64,000 nt of DNA from Clostridiales bacterium (GTDB lineage: Bacteria > Bacillota > Clostridia > Ch29). The notes beneath the pieces were generated by a model. It was not told the origin of the DNA. It was given only the letters and a program-made list of their open reading frames with translations, and did not search any database. The stretch lies in NCBI GenBank assembly GCA_012728565.1, contig JAAYEV010000103.1, positions 11-64,010 on the forward strand, in the 5' to 3' direction. Shown piece by piece: positions 9,697 to 39,085 of this stretch; position 1 is the first letter of the stretch, and every line of letters begins with the position of its first letter. The translations under genes were made by a program, and so were the position numbers.

Positions 9697-10857
9697 TCAT
9701 CTCCCGGATATTCTCCTTAAGAACCCTACTTCGGTTACAAGTGCATCCACAAGTATATCAGCCTCATCAATGGAATTGAACGGGCAGAGGCTAATCCTCA
9801 CGGTACCCTCCGCCTCCTCTTTGCTTAGGCCTATGACTTCCGGCACCCCGGCTGCCTTTATTTGTTTTGACGAGCAGGCGGACCCTGTGGAAATATATAT
9901 GCCGTGTTTTTCCAAGGCGTGGAGCAATACCTCGCCCTTCACTCCGCGAAATGAAACGCTTAAAATATGTGGAGCGCCACTATCCCCCTCGGGGGTATTG
10001 ATCCTTATATCATCAATACTTTTTTCAATACCCTCCCTGATTCTTTGTTTAAGCTCTGCCATTTTTGCAGTGTATTCGCTAAAATGGCTGCTGAAAACTT
10101 CGACGGCCTTTCCCATTCCTGCAATCCCGGGCAGGTTTTCGGTCCCCGAACGCAAGCCCATCTCCTGTCCCCCTCCGGTCTGCCATGGACGCAGATTTAT
10201 GCCCTTTTTGCAGTACAGCGCTCCTATGCCTTTCGGTCCATGGAATTTATGGGCGCTTATTGAAATAAGCTGCGGTCCCGTTTTGCCCACGTCAAGGGGT
10301 ATTTTCATAAAGGCCTGTATGCAGTCGGCGTGGAAAAAGGTAAGGGGGTTTTTCTCCCTGACTAGCTTGCCTATAAGTTCAAGGGGCTGTATGCATCCCG
10401 TTTCATTGTTTACTGCCATAAGCGTAACCAGTATTGTGTCTTTTTGGACGGCCTGCGCCAGTTTATCCAGGTCCACCACGCCGTAACAGTCCACGTCTAT
10501 ATAGGATACTTCAAAACCGTCCTTTTTCAAATCCTCCAGTGTCATTTGCACCGACGGGTGCTCCGCCCTGGTGGAAATTATATGTCTGCCCCTGTTAGAA
10601 TAACTGCGGGCGATTCCCCTTATTGCGGTGTTGTTGGCCTCGGTACCGCCGGAAGTAAAGAGTATTTCGGAAGGGTCAGCTTTAAGCGCTTCAGCCACCG
10701 TCTTTCTGCTTTCCTTCAGGATGTTCTCCGCCTGTATACCTTTTCTGTGCAGCGACGACGGGTTGCCGTATTCCTCGGTAAGGCACCTTACCATCGCCTG
10801 CACCACCTGTTCAAAGGGCCTTGTTGTAGCCGCATTGTCAAAATATATCTCTCTCAA
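9697..10857 (-). CDS. iscS: cysteine desulfurase (NifS/IscS class V aminotransferase) paired with thiI
   Basis: ORF 9697..10929 has an N-terminal extension with no homology. Probable TTG start at 10857 after GGAGTGG, giving MREIYFDNAATT. PLP Lys context SISAHKFHGPKG; active-site Cys loop STGSACSS. Confidence 0.85.
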   Translation of the reverse strand: MREIYFDNAATTRPFEQVVQAMVRCLTEEYGNPSSLHRKGIQAENILKESRKTVAEALKADPSEILFTSGGTEANNTAIRGIARSYSNRGRHIISTRAEHPSVQMTLEDLKKDGFEVSYIDVDCYGVVDLDKLAQAVQKDTILVTLMAVNNETGCIQPLELIGKLVREKNPLTFFHADCIQAFMKIPLDVGKTGPQLISISAHKFHGPKGIGALYCKKGINLRPWQTGGGQEMGLRSGTENLPGIAGMGKAVEVFSSHFSEYTAKMAELKQRIREGIEKSIDDIRINTPEGDSGAPHILSVSFRGVKGEVLLHALEKHGIYISTGSACSSKQIKAAGVPEVIGLSKEEAEGTVRISLCPFNSIDEADILVDALVTEVGFLRRISGR

Positions 10858-15435: not shown

Positions 15436-16494
15436 CTACCCGATAATTTCAACGATTGTGATATCCGATTCTTTTGAAAAATCCAGGAATTCTCCCCCCG
15501 CCAATACAACCGGTTTGGTAGGCTGCTGCGGGTATATGTATATAACTTTGCCTATACGCCCGTCACTTAGCCGTACTATATTGCCCACAAAGAAGCGGGA
15601 TATGCCTTGCAGGAAAACCCTAGATATGTATGGGTCCAGACTGTCGAAACTCCTGTCCGAAATGTATTCAGCCACCTTAAAGGGGGGTCTTTTCTTTCTG
15701 TACACCCTGTCCGACATCATCGCATCAAATATGTCCGCAACGGCAACAATTTTGCCGTAGGTATGTATCTTTTCTCCCTTAAGCCCCAATGGGTACCCGC
15801 TTCCATCCTCTCTTTCGTGGTGCATAAGGGCTCCCATCAGCACATCATTGCTCAGAATGTTGTTCTTTTTAAGTATATTATAGCCGTATATCGGGTGCTG
15901 TTTCATAATGTTCCATTCTCTTTCATCCAGGTTGTCCGGCTTGTTCAATATCTCCGGGGGCACCCTACACTTGCCTATATCATGAAATACGCCGGTATAT
16001 CCAAGCTTTCTAAGGTCTCTTTCCGGCATTTTAAGCCATTTGCCCATGAGTATGGCCAACAGGCTTACATTGATGGAATGATAATAGGTATACTCGTCTG
16101 TGATGTGTATTTGCTGCAGCTTGGGCACAATGTTTTCATCATCATTAATTAGGTCTATAAAAACGCTTACCGTTTCTCGTATTCCATCCAAGTTCAACAT
16201 TCTGCCCGACTGCACACTATCGAAAAGTTCCTTGATTACCTTGTTTGACTCATTGTACACCTTTAAGAATTGTTCTGTCTTAACTGCATATGCAGTCTTG
16301 TTTCGTGATGGTCTCTCCTTAACGTCGGTATCTGTTACGATGCTCAAATATGGAATGTTAAGGTCCTTAATCCTTTCAATCATATTGGAAGTAAGCGTCG
16401 TACCTTCTGCCAGGAATAGCGTTCCTCCCTCGTTAATAAAGTCGCTCTTCAGCCTCATCCCCGGCCTCAATTCTTCCGCTTTCAGGTAAGCCAC
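15436..16494 (-). CDS. HD-GYP domain c-di-GMP phosphodiesterase
   Basis: HD motif in VFHDIGK and HHEREDGSGYP (HD-GYP), with an N-terminal sensor-like domain. GTG start after GGGGGTGA. Confidence 0.85.
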   Translation of the reverse strand: MAYLKAEELRPGMRLKSDFINEGGTLFLAEGTTLTSNMIERIKDLNIPYLSIVTDTDVKERPSRNKTAYAVKTEQFLKVYNESNKVIKELFDSVQSGRMLNLDGIRETVSVFIDLINDDENIVPKLQQIHITDEYTYYHSINVSLLAILMGKWLKMPERDLRKLGYTGVFHDIGKCRVPPEILNKPDNLDEREWNIMKQHPIYGYNILKKNNILSNDVLMGALMHHEREDGSGYPLGLKGEKIHTYGKIVAVADIFDAMMSDRVYRKKRPPFKVAEYISDRSFDSLDPYISRVFLQGISRFFVGNIVRLSDGRIGKVIYIYPQQPTKPVVLAGGEFLDFSKESDITIVEIIG

Positions 16495-16701
16495 GCACTC
16501 ACCCCCGAGTAGAAAAAAATGCCTTTACACCTCTATTATACGAATTTTGTCGTTTTTTTTCAACAATTTTCTATATTTTTCAAAAGAATATCAAAAATAC
16601 TAGGCCTATAATATTTTACGAAAGAGGGAGCATATGTAACATTTATCTGCCCAAAATCCCCGTACCCGAACCTATTGCCCAAAAACGGGCATTGAAAAAA
16701 A

Positions 16702-16730
16702 ATAGATAAAGGAATATAATATCCACCATG
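16702..16730 (+). promoter_or_regulatory. sigma-A promoter of the ACT-hom-thrC-thrB operon
   Basis: TTGAAA (16702-16707), a 17-nt spacer, then TATAAT (16725-16730), about 50 nt upstream of the ACT protein ATG. Confidence 0.6.
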
Positions 16731-16779
16731 TAAATACATATGTCCACCAGTGGTGCACATAAATAAAGGGGGTGATTGT

Positions 16780-17220
16780 ATGAAGGAGCCGGTATACTAC
16801 ATCGTGGATTCCTCGGTGCTTCCGGAGGTGTTTTCCAAGGTAATCGAGACAAAGGCCCTTCTTCGAACGGGCAGGGCCAAAAACGTTAATGCAGCGGTAA
16901 AGATGGCAGGCATCAGCAGAAGTGCGTTTTATAAATACAAGGATTATGTCTTTCCTTTTTATGAAACAAGAAAAATGAAAATAGCAACCATTACTTTGCT
17001 GCTTGAACATATTCCGGGGGTACTGTCCAAGGTCCTTGATACAATCGCCAAAGCCCAAGGGAGCATCCTTACCATAAACCAGAACATACCCATACACGAC
17101 GTGGCTATGGTAAGCATCTCCTTCCAAACATCAGACATTAACAAGGACGTGGAGGAATTATTGAACGATATAAGAAAAATCCCCGGAGTCAACAGCTTAG
17201 ATATTGTATCCAGAGAATAG
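16780..17220 (+). CDS. ACT domain-containing protein (UPF0735 family)
   Basis: Start at the ATG at 16780 (MKEPVYY) with RBS AAAGGGGGTGA. C-terminal ACT fold (KIATITLLLEHIPGVLSKVLDTIAKAQGSILTI). Confidence 0.8.
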   Translation: MKEPVYYIVDSSVLPEVFSKVIETKALLRTGRAKNVNAAVKMAGISRSAFYKYKDYVFPFYETRKMKIATITLLLEHIPGVLSKVLDTIAKAQGSILTINQNIPIHDVAMVSISFQTSDINKDVEELLNDIRKIPGVNSLDIVSRE

Positions 17221-17233
17221 GGAGGTAATCATC

Positions 17234-18496
17234 ATGGTTAAGATAGGACTGCTGGGGTGCGGCACCATAGGTTCCGGGGTAGTGGAGCTTCTGGAAAGGG
17301 ATTCGTGCAGGAAAAATGACCTTTCAATAGAGAAGATTTTGGTACGCAACAAGGATAAACATTACAACAAGCCTTACGGCTGTAAGCTGACCGACAGTTT
17401 TAACGACATTATATCAAGCGATGTTGACATCGTGGTTGAGGTGATGGGAGGTATTGACCCGGCGTATTTTTACGTAAAGCAGTCACTGCTTAAGGGGCGG
17501 CACGTGGTAACCGCCAACAAGGACCTTATAGCAAAGTTCGGCAGCGAATTGCAGAATATTGCCCGCCAAAACGGGGTACGGCTGCTGTTCGAGGCCAGCG
17601 TCGGGGGAGGAATACCCATAATAAAACCCCTAAAAGAATGCCTTGCTGCCAACAACATCACCGAGATAAGGGGAATAGTAAACGGTACCACCAATTATAT
17701 ACTGTCCCGCATGGACAGCTCCGGGCTTGATTTTGAAACCGCTCTTAAAGAAGCACAGCAGTGCGGGTACGCGGAAGCCAATCCTGAAGCGGACATACTG
17801 GGACTTGACGCCGCCAGGAAACTGGCCATTTTATCCTCCATTGCATTCCGAATTAGCGTTAATTATGAAGACATACCTGTCCAAGGCATAAACAATATTT
17901 CCGCCGATGATATAAGCCTGGCCAGGTACTTGGGATGTTCGGTGAAATTATTGGCTTTGAGCCGGAAAACCGACCATGGTATAATGGCAAGAGTTGCGCC
18001 TGTGCTGCTAAAAAACACCGACTCGCTGGCAAGGGTGTCGGATGTGTACAATGCCATAGTTGTAAAGGGAGACGCTGTGGGTGATGTTCTGTTCTTCGGC
18101 CGGGGTGCAGGCAAACTGCCTACCGCCAGTGCCGTGGTTGGTGACATTTTTGACATAGTAAGGCACAACATGTCAAGCCAAGGGGTGGAGGATTGCAAGC
18201 TGGAGGACCCTGCCCCGGTGAAGCTGGATACCGCGGGCTGCAAGTCGGATTTCTTAATAAGGGTCAAGGTAAATGACCGTATTGAAGCTATGAATATAAT
18301 CGCAGGCCTTTTCAGTAGATTCGAACTCATATTCCCGGAAAGGGCAAAGCTCGGAAGGCTTATTGACCAAGACCAGGTTATATTTGTCGCCCATGATATA
18401 TATGAAACGGACATTGACAAAAGAATTGACCTGCTGGGAACCGCCGACTGTATAGACAATGTACTCAGCATTTTACGCGTAGAGGGGGAAGCTTAG
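17234..18496 (+). CDS. hom: homoserine dehydrogenase
   Basis: NAD(P)-binding GLLGCGTIGSG and catalytic-domain motifs, plus a C-terminal ACT domain. Start at the ATG at 17234 after GGGAGGT. Confidence 0.92.
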   Translation: MVKIGLLGCGTIGSGVVELLERDSCRKNDLSIEKILVRNKDKHYNKPYGCKLTDSFNDIISSDVDIVVEVMGGIDPAYFYVKQSLLKGRHVVTANKDLIAKFGSELQNIARQNGVRLLFEASVGGGIPIIKPLKECLAANNITEIRGIVNGTTNYILSRMDSSGLDFETALKEAQQCGYAEANPEADILGLDAARKLAILSSIAFRISVNYEDIPVQGINNISADDISLARYLGCSVKLLALSRKTDHGIMARVAPVLLKNTDSLARVSDVYNAIVVKGDAVGDVLFFGRGAGKLPTASAVVGDIFDIVRHNMSSQGVEDCKLEDPAPVKLDTAGCKSDFLIRVKVNDRIEAMNIIAGLFSRFELIFPERAKLGRLIDQDQVIFVAHDIYETDIDKRIDLLGTADCIDNVLSILRVEGEA

Positions 18497-19576
18497 TTGA
18501 GATACAATGGACTAATTGAACGATACAGGGATTATCTCAATGTCGGTGAGAATACAAGAATAATAAGCTTGAACGAAGGCAATACCCCCCTTTTAAGGGG
18601 TTATGCAGTGGAAGAACGGATTGGCAGCAATATCAAAGTCTATTTAAAATATGAAGGCCTTAACCCGACCGGGTCCTTTAAGGACAGGGGTATGACCATG
18701 GCGGTTACTAAAGCGGTGGAAGCCGGCTCGAAGTGTATTGTATGCGCTTCTACCGGCAACACTTCCGCCTCCGCAGCCGCCTATGCGGCAAGAGCGGGTA
18801 TCGGGTGTATAGTTCTTATACCCGCCGGTAAAATAGCGCAGGGCAAACTGGCACAGGCATCCGCATACGGAGCCAGAGTAATAGCATTGGATGGAAACTT
18901 TGACCAGGCCTTGGATATGGTAAAAAGGCTTTCAGAGGAATATCCGGTAACGCTGGTTAACTCCATCAATCCCGACCGGATAGAAGGACAAAAAACCGCC
19001 GCCTTTGAACTGTGCGACCAACTCGCCGGTCCGCCCGATTATCTCGCCATTCCGGTTGGAAATGCCGGAAACATAACAGCCTACTGGAAAGGCTTTAAGG
19101 AATACATGCAAAGCGGGGTTATAAATAGCCTTCCTGTAATGCTGGGTTTTCAGGCGTCAGGTGCCGCGCCCATCGTTGAGGGAAGGGTAATAACAAACCC
19201 TGAAACGATTGCCACCGCCATTCGCATAGGCAATCCCGCAAGCTGGAAAGGCGCGGAGAATGCCGCGGCCCAGTCCCACGGCCGTATTGACAAGGTGACC
19301 GACCAAGAAATCTTAGAGGCATACAGGCTGCTTGCTTCCGGCGAAGGCATATTCGCAGAACCGGCTTCCTGCGCATCGGTGGCGGGACTTATTAAACTGG
19401 CAAAAGAAGGACACATTGAAAAGAACTCCACCGTGGTTTGCGTCCTGACCGGAAACGGCCTCAAGGACCCGGATATAGCCATAAACACAAGCTCAAAACC
19501 ACTGCAGCTTCCAGCCGATTTCAATACCCTTTCGGCCCAAGTTGCAAGCCTAATTGGCGGTGATGAATATGTATAG
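18497..19576 (+). CDS. thrC: threonine synthase
   Basis: PLP Lys motif [14 protein letters not shown] start overlaps the hom stop (TAGTTG) with GAGGGGGAAGC upstream. Confidence 0.9.
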
Positions 19577-20468
19577 GGTAAAAGTACCGGCTACTTCTGC
19601 CAATATGGGACCGGGCTTTGACTGCATGGGTGTTGCGTTGGATATTTACAACACGGTGGCGGCGGAGGAAATACCTGAAGGATTAGTAATAGAGAACCAC
19701 GGCAGGGATGCAGGCCTAATTGGAAAGGATGACTCCAATTTAATATACAAGGCTATGAAAACCGTCTTTGAAAAGGTGGGCTATATACCGGCGGGACTTA
19801 AAATAACCTCTTATAATGAAATCCCGGTGGCACGGGGCCTGGGCAGCAGCGCTGCAAGCACGGCGGCGGGACTTATACTGGCAAATGCAATGACCGGGTA
19901 AACCTTGAGCCTGGAAGAGATTATCCGGTTGGGCACAGCCTTGGAGGGCCACCCCGACAACATAGTACCGGCCCTGATTGGCGGCATGACCCTATCGTAC
20001 TCCCAGGATACCTCTTCGGTGGGGTATATAAAGGTGGATTTTCCCGAAAACCTTAGAATGCTTGTAATGGTTCCGGATTTTATGCTGTCCACCACAAAGG
20101 CACGCATGGTACTCCCCCAACAGGTTGAACTGGGGAATGCCGTGTTCAATATCAGCAGGGCGGCATTGATGGTTGCGGCCCTTACGGCGGGCAAACTGGA
20201 GCATCTCAAGTACGCCGTACAGGACAGGCTCCACCAACCCTACAGGGAAAAGCTCATACCCGGAATGCAGGAAGTATTCGAGCAGGCTTATAATGCCGGT
20301 GCAAGGGGAGTATTTCTTAGCGGTGCCGGCTCAACAATTGTAGCCATGGTGGATGCCGATAACAGTGATTTCCTGTCAAGGCTTAGAGCCTTCCTGGAAA
20401 GGATGTCCTATAACTGGGAGCTTAAATTCGTGAATGTCAGCAGGCAGGGGGCGGCACGTATTCAATAA
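19563..20468 (+). pseudogene. thrB: homoserine kinase interrupted by an in-frame TAA (two ORFs 19554..19901 and 19905..20468 in the same frame)
   Basis: The N-terminal ORF carries GHMP kinase motif 2 (PVARGLGSSAASTAAG). The C-terminal ORF continues (EGHPDNIVPALIGG...GAGSTIVAM). TAA at 19899-19901 sits in-frame between ...ANAMTG and TLSLEE.... Confidence 0.85.
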
Positions 20469-20505
20469 CCCCTCCAACTCCATACGGCCGCTCCCTTTTC
20501 AAAAA

Positions 20506-20540
20506 AGCTAAAGTGGTTTACGCTTTAGCTTTCTTTTGTT
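20506..20540 (+). terminator. rho-independent terminator of the thr operon
   Basis: AAGCTAAAG-tggtttac-GCTTTAGCTT followed by TCTTTTGTT. Confidence 0.7.
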
Positions 20541-20657
20541 ACTTCCTCATCCCACAATCCCCCTATTTTTCTAATACTTAATTGTTCTTCGGCTCTTTAC
20601 AACCGCATCCAATAATTATATTATATTGTTAACGATAATAGATGGAGATGATGCGTT

Positions 20658-21245
20658 ATGAAAATTGAAAAGATAAGTGATTACAAGGTAAAAATAACCA
20701 TCAGCTCGATTGACCTTGAAGAGAGAAACATTGATATGGACGACCTTGTATACAACAGCCCCAAGGCCCAGGAATTGTTCTGGGATATCCTGTACCAGGC
20801 CTATGTCGAACAGGGTTTTGAAGTAAAGGATGAACAGTTGGTTGTAGAGGCGATACCCAACTCAAGGGACACCTTTGTAATAACAATAACAAAATACAGG
20901 AACCGACAACTGCTTAAGCCGGGGCCCAGTAAGTTCATCAAGGGCTCGGATACAAAAAAAGCGGTCAAATCAAAGGAGATCTGCTACTGCTTTGACGACC
21001 TGGAAGATATCATAGCCCTAAGCAAAAGGATTATTGACAACTTCAGGGGCGACAGTTCGGTTTACAAGCACCGGAATGCTTATTACCTGGTCCTGAAGCC
21101 CTATGACACATACCCGAACCTTTCGCTTGAAGTGATTGCGGAGGAATACGGGTACCGCTGCAGGACCGCCGAAATGTTTTTAAAGGAATACGGAGACGCC
21201 CTTATTGAAAACAGTGCCGTGGAAATCCTTGCATGGTGTATATGA
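20658..21245 (+). CDS. mecA: adaptor protein MecA (ClpC adaptor)
   Basis: MKIEKISDYKVKITISSIDLEERNID closely matches the MecA N-terminus; 195 aa. Confidence 0.88.
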   Translation: MKIEKISDYKVKITISSIDLEERNIDMDDLVYNSPKAQELFWDILYQAYVEQGFEVKDEQLVVEAIPNSRDTFVITITKYRNRQLLKPGPSKFIKGSDTKKAVKSKEICYCFDDLEDIIALSKRIIDNFRGDSSVYKHRNAYYLVLKPYDTYPNLSLEVIAEEYGYRCRTAEMFLKEYGDALIENSAVEILAWCI

Positions 21246-28456: not shown

Positions 28457-29290
28457 TCATCGCAGGTGGATTATCGGCAAATGGGGCCTGTTGTTCATCC
28501 TAACCGGGATTATGCTGCTGCCCAGTCCCCGGCTTACCACCATCTGTACACCGTTTTCCGAGGCATACAGGCCGGATGTGTATTTTGGTAAAAAGCCCTG
28601 GTGGGGGGCCACTACCCCCCTGTTAACAAAGGGTATCCTGAACTGTCCCCCGTGGGCATGGCCGCTTAATACCAGGTCAGGTCTAACTTCGTTCGAAGCT
28701 GAACAGTACGAATCAAAAAGCTCCGGCCTGTGCGCCAGGAGTATCCTGGGCATATCCTTTGCCATTTCCAAGCCATAGAGGCGGTCCTCCGAATAGCCGG
28801 TGCCGTCCCCAAGCCCCATAATGGCGATCATGGAACTGACCTTTCTAAATACTTCAACCCTGTTTTCCACCACCAGCACACCGGTTTTCCCTATGGCTTC
28901 CTCCCATTTTCCGGCATCCCTTCTCCGGGCCTCATGGTTTCCCCTCACCGCATAGGTAACCGCGATACCCGTTAGGTCGGTGCAGAATTTTATAAAATCC
29001 GGATTATCCCACCTGCCGCTTCCATCCAGTATATCACCGGTCAGCGCAATTATATCGGGCTTTTCCCTTTGCAGTATTTTTATGAATCTCCCTGTATCCG
29101 GCGCATAAAGGGGAATGTGGACATCCGATACATGGGCTATTTTCAGGCCCTTCAGTTCCTCCGGCAGGTTGTTTATCGCCACGTCAATATGCTCCACCTG
29201 CACCCAGGTGTTCTGAAAATAAACATATACTATTATGACCGCAAGGGCACCGGTTAGCATCCCCACTTTGCTTTTCCCTTTCTTTTTCAA
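28457..29290 (-). CDS. membrane-anchored metallophosphoesterase (YkuE-like)
   Basis: N-terminal TM helix and calcineurin-like motifs (HVSDVH, GDILD, GNHE, SGHAHGGQ). Confidence 0.85.
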   Translation of the reverse strand: MKKKGKSKVGMLTGALAVIIVYVYFQNTWVQVEHIDVAINNLPEELKGLKIAHVSDVHIPLYAPDTGRFIKILQREKPDIIALTGDILDGSGRWDNPDFIKFCTDLTGIAVTYAVRGNHEARRRDAGKWEEAIGKTGVLVVENRVEVFRKVSSMIAIMGLGDGTGYSEDRLYGLEMAKDMPRILLAHRPELFDSYCSASNEVRPDLVLSGHAHGGQFRIPFVNRGVVAPHQGFLPKYTSGLYASENGVQMVVSRGLGSSIIPVRMNNRPHLPIIHLR

Positions 29291-29307: not shown

Positions 29308-31266
29308 CTAGATACCACCCTTAATACCGGGCTTTGCTTTTTTCTTTCGCTTTGCTATCCAGATAACCGTCATGGCTATCAAAACTATTACAATTGTCAC
29401 AACGGCGTATACCGCCAGGGCAATACCGTTGGGGTTTTTAACAAGGGCAGCTATACTGCGGCTGCTGTCAACAACCTTCCTTCCGTGGGTACTGTTATAA
29501 TATGGTGGTATTTGCGGAACCCCGCCCACCCTGTCAAAGGACTGCAGGTACCTGGCAATGGCAAGCCATTCCTTGACCTCTTCCCCGCTTGCCGCATCCT
29601 TAATGATGTGCTGCTCGAAATCGGTAACGGGTATCCCCTCGGCGGTTTTGGGAACTATGGACAAAAGCCCGAAGGACTTATCCCCCACTATTGAGAGCAT
29701 CTGGGCCGAGTACAGTCCGGCCACAACGCGGTACAGCTTTTCGTCCTCTATCTCTTCCCTGGACCCGTCCGGTCTCATGAGATAGGCATCGGTTACCTTG
29801 TTGAAAATAAGCCGGTTGGGGTTGAAGGTAAAATTAACACCTGAGATAAACAGCTGTGCCACATCCATCATTGGGGCAACCGATGCGTCAACCTCGCAGG
29901 CCGTTTTCAGTTCTTTGCCGGTAAGATACACCGAAATCAAGGGGTAACCGGGGATTCCGTCGGCGCCTATTCCCAAAGAGCTTACACTGAAAGCATCCGC
30001 TGCGGTTATTTCTCCCTTATAAAAGGAACCCCGTATGGTGCCAACAGGAACAATGGCCGCATCAACAGGAATGTAATCCTTGCCCTCCGCTTGTTTTACT
30101 GCGTATATATAGGCATCGCTTATCAGGTTCCCCAGCGTATCCTCGCCGTGGGAATCGGATATTTCGCCCTGGGGCCTAAAATTAAAGGGCGATACGGCCA
30201 GCACCTGGTCAAATTCCAGGCCGAACCTATCGAAATATTTTTGCTGTACCAGCTCCTTGTATCCATTTACAAGGCCCTGTATACGCTCATCCTCCGGTAA
30301 TTGCTCGTCTATCCGCCTCAGGCGGTAGTCTTTCAGCCTCCAGCCCTCAGCGTCCTGCGATAATTCTATCACACCCAGGTACCTGCAGCTGTCCCCGGCG
30401 GAGCCAATAATGGTATCCCCTACAACAAGCGGTTCTGAATACACGGTATGGGTGTGGCCGCTTATTATTACGTCTATTCCGGATACCTCCTTTGCCAGTA
30501 CATCATCGCCGGGCTCCTTGCCGTCCCCCCAGGTGCCGGTATGGGAAAGGCAAATGATAAGGTCCGCCCTTTCCTTATTCTTAAGTACATCCACAATCCG
30601 GCGGGCGCTTTCCACCGGGCTGTCGAACTCCACCTCCGACATGGGCGCCTTGTAGGCGGCATCCTCCCCCATCAGGCCGAATATGCCCACCCTTACGCCG
30701 TTTCTTTCAATTACAGTGTATTCTTTAACCCCAAAATCTTCGTAGGCCTTTTTAAGCGCTGCCAGTGAAGGGGATAATTCCCCGTTATCATCCACTGGAA
30801 ATACCACATTGGACTGCATAACCTGCGGCAGGCGGTCCCCGCTTTTTAGAGCGGCCGTTAAGCTCTCCGCAAGGCCCATGGCCCTGTAGTCGTATTCATG
30901 GTTTCCAAAGGTGACTGCGTCATACCCCATCGCGCCCATTAGTCTTAGCTCAGGCGCATCGCTTTGGAATATGGTCTGAAAGGGAGTCCCCATGGAAAAG
31001 TCCCCTGCATCAACCAGCAGGGCATCGGGGTTTCGTTTCTTTTCATCCAGGATTGCGCTTTGGAGCCTTGCAAAACCGCCCGAATTTGTAACAGAACCGT
31101 TCTGCAGGTCCTTAACCGGCAGCAGGTGGTCGTGCAGGTCATGGGTAAAAAGTACCGTCATGCTTTTCCCGGCCCCCTGGGCCGAAGCCGGTTTTGGGTC
31201 CACAAGTAAAGTAAATATGAAACTTAATAGAATAATAAACGTAACTGCCCTATATTTACTATTCAT
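29308..31266 (-). CDS. bifunctional metallophosphatase/5'-nucleotidase, C-terminal membrane anchor
   Basis: Signal peptide. N-terminal metallophosphatase motifs (DLHDHL, DAGDF, GNHEYD) and a 5'-nucleotidase C-terminal domain. A C-terminal TM helix is followed by a KRKKKAK tail. Confidence 0.88.
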   Translation of the reverse strand: MNSKYRAVTFIILLSFIFTLLVDPKPASAQGAGKSMTVLFTHDLHDHLLPVKDLQNGSVTNSGGFARLQSAILDEKKRNPDALLVDAGDFSMGTPFQTIFQSDAPELRLMGAMGYDAVTFGNHEYDYRAMGLAESLTAALKSGDRLPQVMQSNVVFPVDDNGELSPSLAALKKAYEDFGVKEYTVIERNGVRVGIFGLMGEDAAYKAPMSEVEFDSPVESARRIVDVLKNKERADLIICLSHTGTWGDGKEPGDDVLAKEVSGIDVIISGHTHTVYSEPLVVGDTIIGSAGDSCRYLGVIELSQDAEGWRLKDYRLRRIDEQLPEDERIQGLVNGYKELVQQKYFDRFGLEFDQVLAVSPFNFRPQGEISDSHGEDTLGNLISDAYIYAVKQAEGKDYIPVDAAIVPVGTIRGSFYKGEITAADAFSVSSLGIGADGIPGYPLISVYLTGKELKTACEVDASVAPMMDVAQLFISGVNFTFNPNRLIFNKVTDAYLMRPDGSREEIEDEKLYRVVAGLYSAQMLSIVGDKSFGLLSIVPKTAEGIPVTDFEQHIIKDAASGEEVKEWLAIARYLQSFDRVGGVPQIPPYYNSTHGRKVVDSSRSIAALVKNPNGIALAVYAVVTIVIVLIAMTVIWIAKRKKKAKPGIKGGI

Positions 31267-31472
31267 TTTATTGACCTCACTTTTTATTTTTATTCCTTAT
31301 ATCTTCCCCCGTTACGTTACCGGTGCTTATGCTGCCATGGCATTTAAAGCCCTTCTCCTTATATTTCCGGGCTACTCTTATCATTCTATGACTTTATACA
31401 ATTTCCTGCCATATGTAAAAAAACAGGGACTGCCCCTGTTTAGTATGTTTTCGGCCGCTTGCCGGTGCCCGG

Positions 31473-32852
31473 TTATTCAATCACAATGACCGCACCGCTC
31501 TGGTAGTCCATCCAGTTGTATAAAAACTCCGCATGGCTGGTGTAGTTGCGCACGCACATGTTGGAGCGGGGGAATGTTCCTATGGTGTGAAGGTACTCGA
31601 TGTGCCCGGGGTCCACTCTCTCGCCGTCCTGCTCCTCGTATGCCACCGGAACGCCGTGGATATAAGCCCCGCCGGTAAACCGTACCGCAAAGGGTGCGTA
31701 CCCGGCAACGTCCGGCGAATCGCTTTTCAGGTACTCGAATCGGTCTTTCTTCTCTATTGCCTTATAACTGCCGAGGGTGGTTTCAAAGGAATACTCCCCC
31801 GGAAAGCCGGTGGTGGCTAAAGTATAGGATATAAGGTTTAGGGTGTCCCCCGCCACCTCAAAGGCGGCTTGATTCTGGTGGGTCCTGTCCACCACCACCA
31901 CGTGATTCAGCCGGCTTAACGTGGCATCAGCATCAATGTACTTTTTGGGAACATAAAAGTCTCCGTCAAAGGAAGGCACATCAACATGGTATAAATCACC
32001 TGCCTCGCCGAGTATCCTTACCAGCATCCCGTCCGGTATATACCGGAAATCGCCGCCGGTATCCGCCTGGAAGTAAGCCGGAGCACTGTGATAGACCCTG
32101 TATCCGTGCTCGTCCACCGCGGCGTCTCCCTTCTGAGGCGGCGGTCCGTTTTGGTTCTTGTAATTGCTTATAAAATGAAGGGGTCCCTGGGCTACCTGCT
32201 GTTTAAGGTCATTCACCGCGTCCCGCATCCTTTCAAAGCGGAAACTCCGCGGGGTTCCCTCGGTTGAGTGGAGGTAACCCTCGCCGGTTTTGTTGCCGTC
32301 CCAGAAGCCAACCCTGTACCATATATTGGACCCCTGGAACTCGTCGCTTTCAACCCTCTGCAGTAATGATAACTTGTCAAGGTTCCCCACGCTTGCTACG
32401 GTGGCAGAATCCTGCACGGGATTTTCCCGGACTTTAGCGCCGTTATCCGCCGTCACCAGGAAATAATCAAAGGGAAGGCTGTACCGGGTGTATTGTACAG
32501 CGTCATTTATCCCCTCCGGCAGGGTGGTGCTGTATTCATGGAGCACGGCATTCATCTTTTTGGAGCCGACTTTCTTTACCATTTGAAGGCTTCTCTGCCG
32601 GTCAAGGGCGGATATCCTCCTGCTCCCGTCCTCCTGCGCTGTCTCTGTAATACGCAGGTCATCCTTTATGCTGTAACCGTTGATGTTTTCCTCCACCGCT
32701 TCTTTGCCGGACTTTGCCAGCTTGTCCTCCTTGGGCTGTTCAGTCTGCCGTCTTGGGGAGGGCCGCTCCTCGGGAGGCGCAGGCCGGTTAACGCAGCCCG
32801 CCGCCGCGATTATTAGGATAATTATGAGTACCAAACTGAATCTTCTTTTCAT
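31473..32852 (-). CDS. L,D-transpeptidase-fold lipoprotein (YkuD-like catalytic domain, atypical motif)
   Basis: Lipobox AAAGC. The C-terminal domain has HTIGTFPRSNMCVRN instead of HGT...SHGC[IV]R, and an SH3b-like segment lies internally. Start likely at the MKRRF ATG (32852) after GGAG. Confidence 0.65.
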   Translation of the reverse strand: MKRRFSLVLIIILIIAAAGCVNRPAPPEERPSPRRQTEQPKEDKLAKSGKEAVEENINGYSIKDDLRITETAQEDGSRRISALDRQRSLQMVKKVGSKKMNAVLHEYSTTLPEGINDAVQYTRYSLPFDYFLVTADNGAKVRENPVQDSATVASVGNLDKLSLLQRVESDEFQGSNIWYRVGFWDGNKTGEGYLHSTEGTPRSFRFERMRDAVNDLKQQVAQGPLHFISNYKNQNGPPPQKGDAAVDEHGYRVYHSAPAYFQADTGGDFRYIPDGMLVRILGEAGDLYHVDVPSFDGDFYVPKKYIDADATLSRLNHVVVVDRTHQNQAAFEVAGDTLNLISYTLATTGFPGEYSFETTLGSYKAIEKKDRFEYLKSDSPDVAGYAPFAVRFTGGAYIHGVPVAYEEQDGERVDPGHIEYLHTIGTFPRSNMCVRNYTSHAEFLYNWMDYQSGAVIVIE

Positions 32853-32953
32853 ATGCATCTCCATCCCTTGTTTTTTGTTAATACTCCAGGTATATTTTTC
32901 TCAAGTAACCGCTGCATTATGTATTTCGCAGCCAATACAAAAGCAGCCCCCTG

Positions 32954-33424
32954 TCAGTAGGCTGCTCCCTCAAGATTTATAAAGCTGGTATCGACTATTT
33001 CGCCGTCCAGGGTAACCCGGGCAAGGCATACCGGCAGCTTGAACCTTCGCGGCCCGGCACTGCCCGGGTTTATGTACAATATCCCGTCTTTCCTTTCTTC
33101 TTTTGCCCTGTGTGAATGACCGCTTATCACGATGTCTATCCCCTCTTTCCGGGGGTCGATATCAAGCTCTTTCAAGTCATGCAGCACGTATATATTCTTA
33201 TTCCCCATTCTCACCGACTCTGTCCCGGGGAGCTTGGCTGCCCATTTTCCCCGGTCGCAGTTACCCCGGACCGCTTTTACCGGGGCTATTTCCTCAAGCT
33301 TTTCTATAACCACCGGGCTTCCTATATCCCCGGCATGTATTATTAGGTCCACTCCTTTCAAGGCGTGGACTGCTTCTTCCCGCAGCAGGCCGTGAGTATC
33401 AGAAATTATTCCGATGGTTTTCAT
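32954..33424 (-). CDS. YfcE/MJ0936-family metallophosphoesterase
   Basis: Motifs ISDTHG, HAGD, GNCD and SGHSH. Start at the ATG at 33424 after GGAGGGGGAAA. Confidence 0.85.
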   Translation of the reverse strand: MKTIGIISDTHGLLREEAVHALKGVDLIIHAGDIGSPVVIEKLEEIAPVKAVRGNCDRGKWAAKLPGTESVRMGNKNIYVLHDLKELDIDPRKEGIDIVISGHSHRAKEERKDGILYINPGSAGPRRFKLPVCLARVTLDGEIVDTSFINLEGAAY

Positions 33425-33606
33425 CCCGGGTTTCCCCCTCCAACACTCTCTCATCACTGCCTTTTAGCAAACAAATATGCCTGGTTCAGCAAACCATAAG
33501 TTCGTCATCGATTTTCAAAGGGTTCTGTACTATTACAAGGGGCATTATTTCCGGCGTTCTTTCGAAAAAACGAACGGTATCAACACCCATCCCAAGCACC
33601 TTCCCA

Positions 33607-34164
33607 TCATATTTTGAAAGCTATCGGGAGGTCCTTAATGTATTTTCTCCAAATCATATGGTCATATCCTTCGCCCCAATAGTCCTTTATTACATAGGCA
33701 GGCTCACCGAATTTCCTTTTCCAAACTCTCTGGGCGTTCTTGTACCCACTGTCCAGGCAGAATTCGTCAATATTTCTGCCAAGCAGCGTAAGGCAGATGG
33801 CATTCAGCATAAGCGTACCGATCCCCTGCCGCTGGTAGGCCGGGTGAACGAAAGCCGTTCCCACCTCAACCACGCCTTCCAGCTCTCCGTTGGTACAGTC
33901 TAAAATTATCGGACCGGTGGGGCCGTATTCTATTGTACCTACAATCTCTCCCTCTATTAAAGCTGTAAGAAAATATCTCCTCTCCCCATTTGATTCGAGG
34001 TCTTCCTTAAGGATGCTTTTCTTCTCAAAAATCTCTTTTTCCATGTCCTCGGCCATATGCGCCAGGCCCTCTTTTGCGAAGGTGTCCCGGACCACCAGTT
34101 CAAAAAAATTGTGCAGCTTTTCTACATCCCCCGGCTGGGGCCTTCGTATCTCTATGTTTGCCAA
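33607..34164 (-). CDS. GNAT family N-acetyltransferase
   Basis: Motif QRQGIGTLML and the GNAT fold. Confidence 0.8.
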   Translation of the reverse strand: MANIEIRRPQPGDVEKLHNFFELVVRDTFAKEGLAHMAEDMEKEIFEKKSILKEDLESNGERRYFLTALIEGEIVGTIEYGPTGPIILDCTNGELEGVVEVGTAFVHPAYQRQGIGTLMLNAICLTLLGRNIDEFCLDSGYKNAQRVWKRKFGEPAYVIKDYWGEGYDHMIWRKYIKDLPIAFKI

Positions 34165-34364
34165 TTAAACCGCCCCCTTTTCTTCTTTGTTTCACCATCA
34201 CATTGTCGTATGACTTATTGATGCCGCCTTGATTAATTCTTTCAGCGCGCTACGCCTTTCCTTGGCCTGTTCGGGTGAACGCATTTCCGGTAAAACATGG
34301 GGCTTGCCGCAATATACTTTTTCTAGTATTCTCCAGTTGTTTGGCTTCTCCTTCAGAATACAAG

Positions 34365-34395
34365 AAAAAGAGACGGCTCATTTTGAACCGTCTCC
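34365..34395 (-). terminator. rho-independent terminator of the ior operon
   Basis: On the minus strand, GGAGACGG-ttcaaaatgag-CCGTCTC is followed by TTTTTCTTG. Confidence 0.75.
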
Positions 34396-34402
34396 TTGCT
34401 TC

Positions 34403-34981
34403 CTAGCCTGCCAGTTCCATTCCCTTCTGAAGGGCTTTCTTGTTTATTTCAACAAACTGCGGCTTGACCTCTTGTTCTATCGCCTTGTCCCAGTCCAGGT
34501 TTTCAAGGCCTATGGCCTTAACCAGCGCTCCCAGCAGCACTATGTTTTGCGTCCTCGGGTTGCCAAGCTCCCTTGCCACTTCGGCGGCCTTGAACACTAT
34601 GGTCTTAACCTTGCCCTTTAGTTCCTCGATTATTCCCTCCGGGTACTCGGCAGCACCGGTAAGAATTGGCATGGAGGGTATGGCGTGGTCGTTTACCACC
34701 ATCACGCCGTCCTTTTTCAGGTACTCCAGCATCCTTAACGCTTCCATCCGCTCAAAGGATACTATTATATCCGCCTGGCCCTTGCCTATAATGGGCGAGT
34801 ACACCTTATCACCGTACCTCACCTGGGTTGTTACGCTGCCGCCCCTCTGGGCCATGCCGTGTACCTCCGACATCTTTACATCGTACCCGGCGTTTACTAG
34901 GGCTGTTGACAGAACCTTGCTCGTCAGGATTATACCCTGTCCTCCTACGCCTACAAACAGTATATTCTTAACGTCTGCCAT
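34403..34981 (-). CDS. iorB: indolepyruvate:ferredoxin oxidoreductase subunit beta (IorB)
   Basis: 192-aa PFOR gamma-domain protein (GVGGQGIILTS...). Starts 2 nt after the iorA stop. Confidence 0.85.
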   Translation of the reverse strand: MADVKNILFVGVGGQGIILTSKVLSTALVNAGYDVKMSEVHGMAQRGGSVTTQVRYGDKVYSPIIGKGQADIIVSFERMEALRMLEYLKKDGVMVVNDHAIPSMPILTGAAEYPEGIIEELKGKVKTIVFKAAEVARELGNPRTQNIVLLGALVKAIGLENLDWDKAIEQEVKPQFVEINKKALQKGMELAG

Positions 34982-34983
34982 GA

Positions 34984-36726
34984 TTATTCACCCACCTTCT
35001 CTATGGCTTTAAAGGCGCAGAGCTGTGTGCACAGCTCGCAGCCGTTGCACATGGTATCGTCTATTACCACCCTGCCGTCCTGCTTGGATATGGCCGGGCA
35101 GCCTATCTGCATGCAGGCGTAGCACTGCGTGCATTTATCCTGGTTTACCCGGCAGTAGCCCGTTGGCTGCGGCTCGGTCTTAATCAGCGCACAGGGCCAT
35201 TTGGTCACTATTACATTGGGCTTATCCTTCTTCATGGACTCGTTAACCGCTGCACGCATTTCCTTTAGGTTAAGCGGGTTAACCACTTTTACATCCTCTA
35301 TGCCCAGGGCGCTGCATATCTTCGGAATGTCCAGGGTTACGGTGTCTTCGCCCTTTAAGGTTTTGCCGGTGCCGGGGTTGTCCTGGTGACCCGTCATGCC
35401 GGTTATCCTGTTGTCGGCTATTATTACCGTTATGTTGCTCTTGTTATAGGCTACATCCATTAGGCCGGTTAGACCCGAGTGGAAGAACGTAGAGTCGCCT
35501 ATTACCGCAAACACTTTGCCTTCCCTGCCATTCTTGTCTATCGCTTTTTTAAAGCCGTGGCCCGCGCTTATGCTGGCTCCCATGCATATGCAGGTATCGG
35601 CTGCATTCAGCGGCGGCGCGGCGCCTAAAGTATAGCAGCCTATGTCGCTGGTTACCACCGCGTCCTTCTTGCTTAAGGCAAAGAACAGTCCCCTGTGCGG
35701 GCAGCCGGGGCACAGCACCGGCGGGCGGCCGGGCATCTGACGGTCCGGTTTTAAAAGCTCTTTTTCCGTACCCAGCAGGCTTCTTTCTATGATATCCGGG
35801 TTTAATTCGAAAATACCGGGTATCTTGTCCTTGCCTATGCAGTCAAAGCCCAGTACCTTTACCGCCTCTTCGATATAGGGTTCGTTTTCCTCTATCACGT
35901 ATAGGGTTTCTACCTGCTTTGCAAACTCCGCAATCTTTTTCCTGGGCAGCGGGAAGGTCATGCCTAGCTTCAGGTATGAAGCCTTGTCACCGAACACTTC
36001 CTTCGCGTACTGGTAGCTTATGCCGCTTGTTATTATTCCTACCTTTTTGTCGTTCCACTCGATGAAGTTCAGCGGCGTGATGTTGCTTCGCTCCTCCAGT
36101 TTTGCCAGCCTTTCTTCCAATGACACGTGCAGTTTACGCGCGTGTGCCGGCGTTGCGATGTATTTGCCCATGTTTCTTTCATAGGGCTTGATACTTACTT
36201 CTTCCCTTTCTCCCAGCTCCACCAGCGTCTTGCTGTGGCATATCCTCGTGGTTACACGCAATAGTACCGGTACGTCAAATTCCTCACTTAGCTTTACGGC
36301 TTCCAGTACAAAGTCCTTGGCCTCCTGGCTGTCGCTGGGCTCCAGCATTGCCACCTTCGCGGCCTTGGCATAGTACCTGTTGTCCTGCTCGTTCTGCGAG
36401 CTGTGCAGCCCCGGGTCATCGGCCGATACCAGCACAAGACCACCGTTTACGCCGGTGTAGGCTACCGTGAACAGCGGGTCTGCGGCTACGTTTACGCCCA
36501 CGTGTTTCATGGCCGCCAGGGCCCTGGCGCCCGATATTGAAGCGCCTATGGCCGCTTCCAAGGCCACCTTTTCATTGGGCGCCCATTCTGCGTATATTTC
36601 TTCGTAGGGTGCGATGTTTTCCAATATCTCGGTGCTGGGTGTGCCCGGATAGGCCGCGGCTACCGTTACGCCAGCCTCGTATGCACCCCTGGCAATGGCC
36701 TCATTGCCGGATAGTAGTTTCTTCAA
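34984..36726 (-). CDS. iorA: indolepyruvate:ferredoxin oxidoreductase subunit alpha (IorA; TPP enzyme with 2x[4Fe-4S])
   Basis: 580 aa; TPP-binding GDSTFFHSG and two C-terminal CxxCxxCxxxCP clusters. Confidence 0.88.
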   Translation of the reverse strand: MKKLLSGNEAIARGAYEAGVTVAAAYPGTPSTEILENIAPYEEIYAEWAPNEKVALEAAIGASISGARALAAMKHVGVNVAADPLFTVAYTGVNGGLVLVSADDPGLHSSQNEQDNRYYAKAAKVAMLEPSDSQEAKDFVLEAVKLSEEFDVPVLLRVTTRICHSKTLVELGEREEVSIKPYERNMGKYIATPAHARKLHVSLEERLAKLEERSNITPLNFIEWNDKKVGIITSGISYQYAKEVFGDKASYLKLGMTFPLPRKKIAEFAKQVETLYVIEENEPYIEEAVKVLGFDCIGKDKIPGIFELNPDIIERSLLGTEKELLKPDRQMPGRPPVLCPGCPHRGLFFALSKKDAVVTSDIGCYTLGAAPPLNAADTCICMGASISAGHGFKKAIDKNGREGKVFAVIGDSTFFHSGLTGLMDVAYNKSNITVIIADNRITGMTGHQDNPGTGKTLKGEDTVTLDIPKICSALGIEDVKVVNPLNLKEMRAAVNESMKKDKPNVIVTKWPCALIKTEPQPTGYCRVNQDKCTQCYACMQIGCPAISKQDGRVVIDDTMCNGCELCTQLCAFKAIEKVGE

Positions 36727-36820
36727 TCATCTCACTCCCTCACAAAATATGTTATTATTAGTCGGATGATATTATTAACCCCACACAAAATTATACATTA
36801 AACATCGACAAATATCACAG

Positions 36821-37726
36821 TCATATTTTTCCCGCGACTACGCTGCCCAGCGCAATTGAATAGAGTTTTGCCTGGTGGGTGTCCGCCCTCGAAACCAGCA
36901 CAATGGGCGCCTTTGCTCCCATTACCACCCCTGCGGATTCTGCGTTGGCGAAATAGGTCATGCACTTTCCTATGCCGTTCCCCACCTCTATGGCGGGTAC
37001 CAAAAGCACGTCGGTGTCACCGGCAACCGGGCTTTCCACTCCCTTGTGTTTTGCCGCCTCCTTGCTGAAGGCAAGGTCAAAGGACAGCGGACCGTCCACC
37101 ACGGCGTTTCCGAATTCCCCGGTCTCCGACATCTCTTTCAGTTTTACCGCGTCCATCGTCGCCGGCATCTTGTCGTTCGCTTTTTCAACCGCTGTTAAAA
37201 CGGCCACCTTGGGCTGCTCCAGTCCCAAAGCGGTACAAACTTCAATGGCATTCTCTATTATCTGCTTTTTCTCTTCCAGCGACGGCGCTATGTTCATGCC
37301 GCCGTCGGTCAGGAATATCAGCTTGTGGTACGCCGGAACCTTGTATACCATAACATGACTCAACAAGTTTATGCCCCGCAGGCCTATTTCCTTGTCAAGG
37401 ACAGCCTTTAACAGGTCCGCCGTGCCCAGGATTCCTTTCATAACAAACTGCGCCCTGCCGCCGCTTACCAGCGATACCGCCTCGCGGGCCGCTTCCCTTA
37501 CGTCGGGAACATCGATTATTTCAAACTTTGTAACATCCATTTTGATTCGATCGGCTATGTCCCTTATTGCTGCTCCGTCGCCCACCAGGACTGGTTCCGC
37601 AATCCCCAGCCTGTACGCTTCGTCGACAGCCAAGAGCACTTCCTCGTCCTGGGCGGCCGCCACCGCAAGCTTCATAGTGCTTTGCTTTTTGGCACTTTGT
37701 ATAAGTTGCTCAAAACTTGTTATCAA
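36821..37726 (-). CDS. ptb: phosphate acyltransferase (phosphate butyryltransferase/phosphotransacetylase family)
   Basis: Pta/Ptb fold (GGAQFVMKG, SRADT). TTG start at 37726 after GGAGGGA, giving MITSFEQL; the ORF track extends to 37741. Confidence 0.8.
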   Translation of the reverse strand: MITSFEQLIQSAKKQSTMKLAVAAAQDEEVLLAVDEAYRLGIAEPVLVGDGAAIRDIADRIKMDVTKFEIIDVPDVREAAREAVSLVSGGRAQFVMKGILGTADLLKAVLDKEIGLRGINLLSHVMVYKVPAYHKLIFLTDGGMNIAPSLEEKKQIIENAIEVCTALGLEQPKVAVLTAVEKANDKMPATMDAVKLKEMSETGEFGNAVVDGPLSFDLAFSKEAAKHKGVESPVAGDTDVLLVPAIEVGNGIGKCMTYFANAESAGVVMGAKAPIVLVSRADTHQAKLYSIALGSVVAGKI

Positions 37727-37841
37727 GCAACATCCCTCCATTTCTCTTTTTATTATTCTTTATTCATAAAATATATCCTTCAAGAATTGACATGAATTTT
37801 AATTATAAAAATATTTTAATATCTCAAAATTAAAAATAAGA

Positions 37842-39062: not shown

Positions 39063-39085
39063 AATATAGCCACCCTTTATATGAA

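What the first reader, a model, noticed from the sequence alone, without database searches (positions are those of the whole stretch)
19554..20468. Homoserine kinase (thrB) is split by an in-frame TAA within an otherwise intact ACT-hom-thrC-thrB operon
The two adjacent ORFs 19554..19901 and 19905..20468 are in the same frame. Together they reconstitute a full-length GHMP-type homoserine kinase, broken only by TAA at 19899-19901 (...ANAMTG*TLSLEEIIRLG...). Gene ends in this window stop at TAA, TAG or TGA as usual (yunB and the PBP end in TAA), so a recoded genetic code is excluded. The gene therefore carries either a genuine nonsense mutation or an assembly error; a true mutation would make the organism a threonine auxotroph or dependent on an alternative kinase. 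The C-terminal part could reinitiate at TTG 19905 to give a split enzyme, which would be unusual for a GHMP kinase. The surrounding operon looks fully functional, with a good promoter, translationally coupled junctions and a terminator, which argues against long-standing decay.
Basis: seen in the sequence. Interest (0 to 1): 0.6.

Follow-up and report, generated by a model that had tools for sequence, protein, structure and literature searches.

The report
Single-base stop codon inside thrB
One G-to-T change turns a glutamate codon into a stop in this assembly's homoserine kinase gene, which is intact in every close relative, so it is an ordinary young knockout mutation or a base error.

Summary
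An in-frame TAA at 19899-19901 cuts a typical 299-codon thrB (ATG 19569 to TAA 20468), the last gene of an ACT-hom-thrC-thrB operon. The intact allele is in public data: protein P0001 is identical at all 298 other residues, has Glu at position 111, and sits on at least 72 contigs from biogas and anaerobic-digester metagenomes. All 14 related DNA loci that span the site read GAA. The lesion is therefore one G>T transversion, Glu111 to stop. The nearest contig is 99.94% identical over 20.9 kb with no indels, and its only difference inside thrB is this base. The TAA allele was not found anywhere else. The stop is not conserved. The window uses all three stop codons normally (TAG 18, TAA 17, TGA 9). 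It carries no suppressor tRNA, and TTG 19905 has no Shine-Dalgarno sequence. Programmed readthrough and a conserved split gene are therefore rejected. Other assemblies of this species also carry sporadic private nonsense SNPs (2 of 283 coding singletons), so this kind of event is background. Whether it is a real, very young null allele (slightly favoured) or a consensus base error cannot be settled without reads. Interest is low.

The parts
16692..20532 (+). Whole transcription unit: promoter-like site, ACT-domain gene, hom, thrC, interrupted thrB and terminator-like hairpin
   Evidence: The gene order is the same in relatives L001-L010.
16692..16720 (+). Sigma-70-like promoter, TTGAAA-17-TATAAT (11 of 12 matches), upstream of the operon
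   Evidence: Consensus scan. This is a pattern match only, not evidence of function.
16780..17220 (+). ACT-domain protein (146 aa as called in relatives), first gene of the operon
   Evidence: NCBIfam NF003361 at 190.7 bits, Pfam ACT and gene calls in L001-L010. Shine-Dalgarno pairing is -13.4 kcal/mol.
17234..18496 (+). hom, homoserine dehydrogenase (420 aa from ATG 17234; the ORF is open from TTG 17204)
   Evidence: Pfam Homoserine_dh and NAD_binding_3 and gene calls in relatives. Shine-Dalgarno pairing is -11.4 kcal/mol at 17234 against -6.1 at 17204.
18497..19576 (+). thrC, threonine synthase-type PLP enzyme (359 aa); it starts on the base after the hom stop
   Evidence: Pfam PALP with E 4.5e-76, ORF list and gene calls in relatives.
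19569..19901 (+). thrB codons 1-110 plus the premature stop. This piece contains the GHMP phosphate-binding motif (PVARGLGSSAAS).
   Evidence: which places it at TIGR00191 profile positions 2-113. It is identical to P0001 residues 1-110.
19899..19901 (+). The lesion: TAA where all relatives have GAA (Glu111). The change is G>T at 19899.
   Evidence: All 14 loci have G here. It is private among the 12 loci aligned at >=95% identity. The codon effect was computed.
19902..20468 (+). thrB codons 112-299 with the natural TAA stop. This piece contains the EGHPDN motif, the remainder of the N-terminal lobe as inferred from the model, and the GHMP C-terminal domain. TTG 19905 is the first in-frame start candidate.
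   Evidence: which places it at profile positions 119-299. It is identical to P0001 residues 112-299. TTG 19905 has no Shine-Dalgarno sequence, at -3.9 kcal/mol.
20504..20532 (+). Terminator-like hairpin (12 pairs) followed by a T-rich tail, 36 nt after thrB
   Evidence: This is a pattern match only.

Best explanation
A single G>T transversion at window 19899 changed codon 111 of thrB from GAA (Glu) to TAA. I take it most likely to be a real and very recent loss-of-function allele, carried by the sampled strain or by the sub-population that dominated the consensus. Ribosomes would terminate after Gly110. The released 110-residue fragment has the phosphate-binding loop but lacks the EGHPDN motif, about half of the N-terminal sheet and the whole C-terminal domain, so it should be inactive. 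thrB is the last gene of the operon, so the upstream genes are unaffected and no gene lies downstream before the terminator-like hairpin. The expected phenotype is threonine auxotrophy unless another kinase exists elsewhere in the genome, which is tolerable in a protein-rich digester. What is shown: a one-base lesion, private to this assembly, in an otherwise unchanged gene, and not conserved. What is inferred: that the base is real rather than a consensus error, that the fragment is inactive, and the phenotype. The broader claim that this is a private point substitution and not a programmed or conserved feature has a confidence of about 0.95. The 0.5 given here applies to the narrower claim that it is a real mutation rather than an error.
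For: The intact allele P0001 is identical at every other residue, has E at position 111, and was seen on 72 contigs and in 121 collection blocks. All 14 related loci have G at the site. L001 is 99.943% identical over 20.9 kb with 0 gaps, and its only thrB difference is 19899. The window looks like a good assembly. Its 20 singleton SNPs in 46 kb are mostly synonymous transitions (11 synonymous, 3 missense, 1 nonsense, 5 intergenic), which is what real variation filtered by selection looks like. Its C>A share (3 of 20) matches that of relatives (37 of 315). Comparable private nonsense SNPs occur in two other assemblies of the species (hutH Q440* in L008, rhomboid Q108* in L018). The AlphaFold2 model (pLDDT 92.6) puts residue 111 in the loop 109-114, between the helix after the P-loop and the next helix. 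Strands 140-169, which I read as completing the N-terminal lobe, lie in the missing part.
Against: No reads are available, so a consensus or base-call error cannot be excluded. Random errors hit stop codons roughly ten times more often than selected variants do (my own rough estimate, not a tool result), which raises the posterior for an error. The exact 39-mer with TAA has no match in the genome or metagenome contig collections. The truncated products are not on record either. There is thus no independent sighting of the allele. The gene shows no second mutation, as expected equally for an error.
Confidence: 0.5

Rival explanations
1. It is a sequencing, polishing or consensus error. The organism's real thrB reads GAA and is intact, and the T at 19899 is an artefact, for example a low-coverage position, a minor allele picked up by the assembler, or a G>T oxidative-damage artefact.
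For: The allele is seen in no other assembly. The rest of the gene and operon is untouched. G>T is the classic 8-oxoG artefact type (established knowledge). Two further private G>T changes lie at 28498 and 37800 on the same strand; neither is a synonymous coding change, one being L265M and the other intergenic. Truncated thrB products in this species can be pure artefacts: P0055 comes from a 2.6x-coverage contig with 19 one-base deletions in 19 kb.
Against: The window otherwise shows no sign of poor quality. It has 0 indels against L001 over 20.9 kb. Its singletons are dominated by synonymous transitions, and its C>A share is the same as in relatives. Substitution errors are rare in well-covered modern assemblies (established knowledge).
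Confidence: 0.42
2. It is a functional two-piece homoserine kinase. After terminating at TAA, the ribosome reinitiates at TTG 19905. The 110-aa and 187-aa fragments then assemble non-covalently, which is helped by the break lying in a surface loop.
For: TTG lies 3 nt after the stop, in frame. Residue 111 sits in a loop (109-114) at a variable alignment position. PDB entry 5was lists a homoserine kinase as two chains of 185 and 55 residues. That may mean a nicked enzyme can hold together, at a different site; it is a lead only.
Against: TTG 19905 has no Shine-Dalgarno sequence (-3.9 kcal/mol, against -9.1 to -13.4 for the operon's genes), and TTG is a weak start codon. The split is absent from all 14 close loci and all 30 homologues, which are single chains of about 300 aa. 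As I read the model, the cut falls inside the N-terminal lobe, whose sheet needs strands from both pieces. Each piece scores below the thrB family cut-off.
Confidence: 0.03
3. The stop codon is read through by programme or suppressed, either by an ochre suppressor tRNA or by a recoding signal, so that full-length enzyme is still made.
For: Nothing positive. The downstream sequence stays in frame and undamaged, but the other explanations predict that too.
Against: The stop is not conserved, since relatives have a plain GAA. TAA ends 17 of 44 genes in the window, so it is a normal stop here. The only tRNA in the window is tRNA-Pro(CGG), and Rfam finds no other RNA element. UAA is read by both release factors and is among the least leaky bacterial stops (established knowledge).
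Confidence: 0.02

Closest known systems
ThrB homoserine kinase (EC 2.7.1.39), GHMP kinase superfamily, NCBIfam equivalog TIGR00191. Solved examples include 5wat, 6cyz, 3hul and 1fwk.
   Same: It aligns to solved homoserine kinases at E 3e-53 to 4e-30. It carries the GLGSSAA and GHPDN motifs, which are invariant in the 30-sequence alignment, and it sits last in a hom-thrC-thrB operon.
   Different: In this window the reading frame is cut at codon 111, so no full-length product is encoded. Each fragment alone falls below the family cut-off.
The intact allele of the same species (protein P0001; loci L001-L010 from biogas and anaerobic-digester metagenomes and MAGs labelled Bacillota or Clostridia bacterium)
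   Same: It is 100% identical at the 298 other residues. The DNA of L001 is identical across thrB except at 19899, and the operon and flanking genes are the same.
   Different: It has GAA (Glu) instead of TAA at codon 111.
Sporadic private nonsense or frameshift alleles in metagenome assemblies of this species (L008 hutH Q440*, L018 rhomboid Q108*, and the frameshifted thrB P0055 in L036)
   Same: They are isolated disruptions of otherwise conserved genes, each seen in a single assembly.
   Different: L036 is demonstrably error-ridden, with 19 one-base deletions in 19 kb at 2.6x coverage. The window shows no indel over the 20.9 kb it shares with L001.
hom-thrC-thrB threonine operon of Bacillus subtilis and other Firmicutes (own knowledge)
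   Same: The gene order and tight coupling are the same: hom and thrC abut, and thrC and thrB overlap by 8 nt.
   Different: Here a PRK04435-type ACT-domain gene precedes hom, and thrB is interrupted.

Membership tests
ThrB homoserine kinase (TIGR00191 / GHMP kinases) | The whole protein scores above the curated equivalog cut-off (168.25 bits). | tested here: met
The encoded fragments alone score 101.9 and 148.5 bits, below the cut-off.
ThrB homoserine kinase (TIGR00191 / GHMP kinases) | The GHMP phosphate-binding motif (GLGSSAA) and the GHPDN motif are present. | tested here: met
   G90 L91 G92 S93 S94 and G127 H128 D130 N131 are invariant columns and are present in the window sequence. However, the two motifs lie on opposite sides of the stop.
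ThrB homoserine kinase (TIGR00191 / GHMP kinases) | A single uninterrupted reading frame of about 300 codons. | tested here: not met
   There is a TAA at codon 111. All 30 homologues and all 14 related loci are uninterrupted there.
ThrB homoserine kinase (TIGR00191 / GHMP kinases) | ATP-dependent phosphorylation of L-homoserine. | not testable with these tools
   This needs an enzyme assay or complementation of a thrB mutant.
Programmed stop-codon readthrough or recoding | The in-frame stop is conserved among orthologues. | tested here: not met
   None of the 14 related loci has a stop; all read GAA. The exact 39-mer carrying TAA has no match in the genome or metagenome contig collections.
Programmed stop-codon readthrough or recoding | A decoding agent (suppressor tRNA) or a recoding RNA element is present. 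| tested here: inconclusive
   None is present in the 64-kb window, which has only tRNA-Pro CGG and no other Rfam hit. The rest of the genome is not available.
Altered genetic code (TAA reassigned) | TAA is not used as a terminator at gene ends. | tested here: not met
   17 of 44 genes in the window end in TAA, including thrB itself.
Naturally split (two-gene) enzyme | The split is conserved in relatives, and the second piece has its own ribosome-binding site and start codon. | tested here: not met
   No relative is split. TTG 19905 has a pairing energy of -3.9 kcal/mol, against -9.1 to -13.4 for the four starts used in the operon.
Decaying pseudogene | Several disabling or non-synonymous changes have accumulated relative to functional orthologues. 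| tested here: not met
   There is exactly one nucleotide difference from L001 within thrB, and 100% amino-acid identity elsewhere.

The most novel reading that the evidence does not exclude
The TAA is real and the gene still works as a two-piece homoserine kinase. Termination at TAA would be followed by reinitiation at TTG 19905, and the 110-aa and 187-aa fragments would reassemble across the surface loop 109-114. This would be a freshly born split GHMP kinase caught at the moment of fission.
Probability: 0.03. Interest if true: 0.5.

Novelty: already known. Interest (0 to 1): 0.08.

Why it matters
It matters little beyond annotation. If the base is real, this strain is a fresh threonine auxotroph within a species whose other sampled members are prototrophic at this locus. 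That would be a small, ordinary example of auxotrophy arising in a nutrient-rich anaerobic digester. If it is an error, the gene should simply be annotated as intact thrB. In either case it should not be reported as recoding, as a split enzyme or as operon decay. The practical value is for annotators: flag thrB as [quoted passage not shown].

Tried and rejected
1. I looked for an independent sighting of the TAA allele. The exact 39-mer was searched in the genome contigs and metagenome contigs collections, and exact-product look-ups were run for both fragments. Nothing was found.

2. I tried to find the window's own assembly through two other proteins that carry private substitutions (the L265M metallophosphoesterase and the U32 peptidase). 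Neither is on record, so no second copy of the strain could be examined.

3. I asked whether thrB is recurrently inactivated in this species. Truncated products P0055, P0056 and P0045 exist. The one contig I checked, the source of P0055, is a 2.6x-coverage assembly with 19 one-base deletions. The idea was rejected for lack of support. P0056 and P0045 were not traced.

4. I tested for an oxidative-damage signature. The three private G>T changes looked suggestive, but the window's C>A share (3 of 20) equals that of relatives (37 of 315). There is no signal.

5. I checked for recoding elements and suppressors. Rfam and ARAGORN found only tRNA-Pro.

6. I tested the reinitiation idea. No Shine-Dalgarno sequence precedes TTG 19905 or any later in-frame start; the best is -6.7 kcal/mol at GTG 20034.

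7. An alternative homoserine kinase could not be assessed from a 64-kb window. None of the gene calls in the related loci covering most of the window carries a GHMP-kinase Pfam domain apart from thrB. About 10 kb of the window (roughly 5.5-9.5 kb and 46.7-52.7 kb) was not covered by any relative and was not scanned.

Full report
**Observation.** The window reads ...GCA ATG ACC GGG TAA ACC TTG AGC CTG GAA..., with TAA at 19899-19901. ORFs 19554..19901 and 19905..20468 are in the same frame. The first ORF matches Pfam GHMP_kinases_N and the second matches GHMP_kinases_C. Against the NCBIfam thrB equivalog TIGR00191 they cover profile positions 2-113 and 119-299. Their scores are 101.9 and 148.5 bits, each below the 168.25-bit cut-off.

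The upstream genes are a PRK04435-type ACT-domain gene, hom and thrC. hom and thrC abut, and thrC and thrB overlap by 8 nt. A TTGAAA-17-TATAAT site lies at 16692-16720 and a 12-pair hairpin with a T-rich tail at 20504-20532. The only correction is that the thrB start used in every relative is the ATG at 19569 (MYRVKV..., 299 aa), not TTG 19554.

**What the stop replaces.** A protein search with the two pieces joined found P0001, a 299-aa homoserine kinase. It is identical to the window at every residue except the stop, where it has Glu. It was recorded on 72 contigs and in 121 collection blocks, and the loci retrieved come largely from biogas-fermenter and anaerobic-digester samples and MAGs labelled Bacillota or Clostridia bacterium.

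Fourteen related DNA loci span the site, and all have G where the window has T. The lesion is therefore GAA to TAA, Glu111 to stop, by one G>T transversion. The closest contig, L001 (JGI 3300020111), is 99.943% identical over 20,900 bases, with 12 mismatches and no gaps. Its only difference inside thrB is position 19899.

**Is the allele seen anywhere else?** It is not. The exact 39-mer containing TAA has no match among the GTDB species-representative genomes or the JGI metagenome contigs. The same pattern with N at the variable base finds only G-bearing sequences. Neither truncated product is on record. Two other window proteins that carry private substitutions are also not on record. The window's own assembly therefore appears to be absent from the collections, and no second look at this strain was possible.

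**Quality and background of the window.** I fetched 36 related loci that together cover about 54 kb of the window and counted singletons wherever at least six sequences align.

| | Window | Relatives |
|---|---|---|
| Singleton SNPs | 20 in 46.1 kb | 315 |
| Synonymous | 11 | 175 |
| Missense | 3 | 106 |
| Nonsense | 1 (thrB) | 2 |
| Intergenic | 5 | 32 |
| C>A/G>T class | 3 of 20 | 37 of 315 |

- The window's mutation spectrum is 12 C>T, 4 T>C, 3 C>A and 1 T>G.
- The window has one private indel, an extra A in an intergenic A-run at 54122.
- The two nonsense singletons in relatives are hutH Q440* in L008 and rhomboid Q108* in L018.

Private nonsense SNPs are thus a low-level background feature of assemblies of this species. 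The window looks like a normal, good-quality member of the set.

One truncated thrB product in the database, P0055, comes from a contig of 2.6x coverage that carries 19 one-base deletions in 19 kb. It is an artefact, not evidence that thrB is lost repeatedly.

**Programmed or conserved alternatives.**
- The stop is not conserved.
- Thirty homologues down to 43% identity are all single chains of about 300 aa. Column 111 is variable (E, D, N, K, G, S, T, R, Q, F), while G110 is nearly invariant.
- TAA terminates 17 of the 44 genes inspected, TAG 18 and TGA 9, so the code is standard.
- The window holds one tRNA, Pro-CGG, and no other Rfam element.
- The four starts used in the operon pair with the anti-Shine-Dalgarno sequence at -9.1 to -13.4 kcal/mol. 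TTG 19905 reaches only -3.9, and no later in-frame start does better than -6.7.

Readthrough, recoding and a conserved split gene are therefore rejected. An accidental split enzyme made by reinitiation is possible in principle but unsupported.

**Consequence if real.** An AlphaFold2 model of the intact protein (mean pLDDT 92.6, pTM 0.90) places residue 111 in the loop 109-114. That loop lies between helix 93-108, which follows the GLGSSAA phosphate-binding loop, and helix 115-126. The 110-residue product would keep the P-loop. It would lose the invariant GHPDN motif (127-131), strands 140-169, which I read as completing the N-terminal lobe, and the entire C-terminal GHMP domain. By inference it is inactive.

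thrB is the last gene before the terminator, so no gene lies downstream to suffer polarity. The predicted phenotype is threonine auxotrophy unless another kinase is encoded elsewhere, which a 64-kb window cannot show. The absence of any second change in the gene means the event is very recent or not real.

**Real mutation or error.** This cannot be decided here.
- For a real mutation: the assembly is otherwise clean, and its private variants look like selected natural variation.
- For an error: a random base error is roughly ten times more likely than a surviving natural variant to create a stop (my own rough estimate, not a tool result). The allele also has no independent sighting.

I put a real, young null allele at about 0.5, an error or minority allele at about 0.42, a working split enzyme at about 0.03 and suppression at about 0.02.

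**Comparison with the known, and verdict.** The gene belongs by sequence to ThrB (TIGR00191, GHMP kinases), with solved relatives 5wat, 6cyz, 3hul and 1fwk. It fails the one family feature of an uninterrupted frame. It is an ordinary internal-stop allele of a well-known gene in a well-known operon type. Novelty is "already known" and interest is low (0.08). Its proposed orthologue test has now been done: relatives have GAA, and none has two separate genes.

Noticed in passing
window 28498 and 37800: There are two further private G>T changes on the same strand as the thrB lesion. One gives L265M in a metallophosphoesterase (28457..29290, minus strand) and the other is intergenic. With 15047 C>T, they are the only private SNPs in the 9.5-45.5 kb stretch, where 10-12 relatives are available. 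The overall spectrum is not unusual, but these are the positions to inspect in the reads alongside 19899.
   Followed up: partly
window 54122: This is a private one-base insertion: an extra A in the run GGATAAAAAAGC. It is absent from all 6 relatives covering it. It lies in the intergenic stretch between the tRNA-Pro(CGG) gene (53946-54022) and the aminotransferase gene that ends at 54162.
   Followed up: no
L036 (ENA ERZ2647963 NODE_1491, cov 2.57), thrB at 10001-10600: The truncated thrB product P0055 (199 aa) comes from a C5-to-C4 deletion at the position equivalent to window 20114. The contig has 19 one-base deletions in 19 kb, and several other genes are split (Aminotran_5, Orn/DAP decarboxylase, LUD). 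It is an error-ridden low-coverage assembly. P0056 shows the same frameshift and P0045 a different one; neither was traced.
   Followed up: partly
L004/L013 (GCA_900198705.1 FZPS01000050.1) and L017 (FZPS01000199.1): In this assembly a 3-kb segment (truncated hom, thrC, thrB; 96.6% identical to window 17689-20688) sits among unrelated small genes, some phage-like (DUF1064, IDEAL, PemK toxin). A second contig matches window 29645-39385 at 99.96% identity and then diverges. These are either chimeric contigs or genuine mosaicism.
   Followed up: no
L016 7368-8576; L003 13860-15817: Insertion-sequence polymorphism exists among strains. L016 has a Transposase_mut (IS256-type) gene between the DUF401 and PTA_PTB genes, equivalent to about window 37.8 kb. 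In L003 a DDE_3 transposase hit is recorded on the FG-GAP gene product, with a small HTH_33 ORF next to it. Both are absent from the window.
   Followed up: no
window 46096-46235 and 62446-62487: There are two tight clusters of private, mostly synonymous substitutions: 6 in 140 nt of a hypothetical gene and 5 in 42 nt of a branched-chain ABC permease gene. They look like short recombination tracts from a more distant lineage rather than independent mutations. Only 4-5 relatives cover these parts.
   Followed up: no
L008 (equivalent to window 13987) and L018 (equivalent to window 43927): Other assemblies of the same species carry their own private nonsense SNPs: hutH Q440* (CAG>TAG) and rhomboid Q108* (CAG>TAG). 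This shows that isolated internal stops are a background feature of these data.
   Followed up: partly
window 16535-16563 (minus strand) and 16692-16720 (plus strand): Two equally good promoter-like sites (TTGAAA-17-TATAAT, 11 of 12 matches) face away from each other in the 285-nt spacer between the HD-domain gene (15436..16494, minus strand) and the ACT-hom-thrC-thrB operon. No riboswitch or T-box was detected in the operon leader.
   Followed up: no
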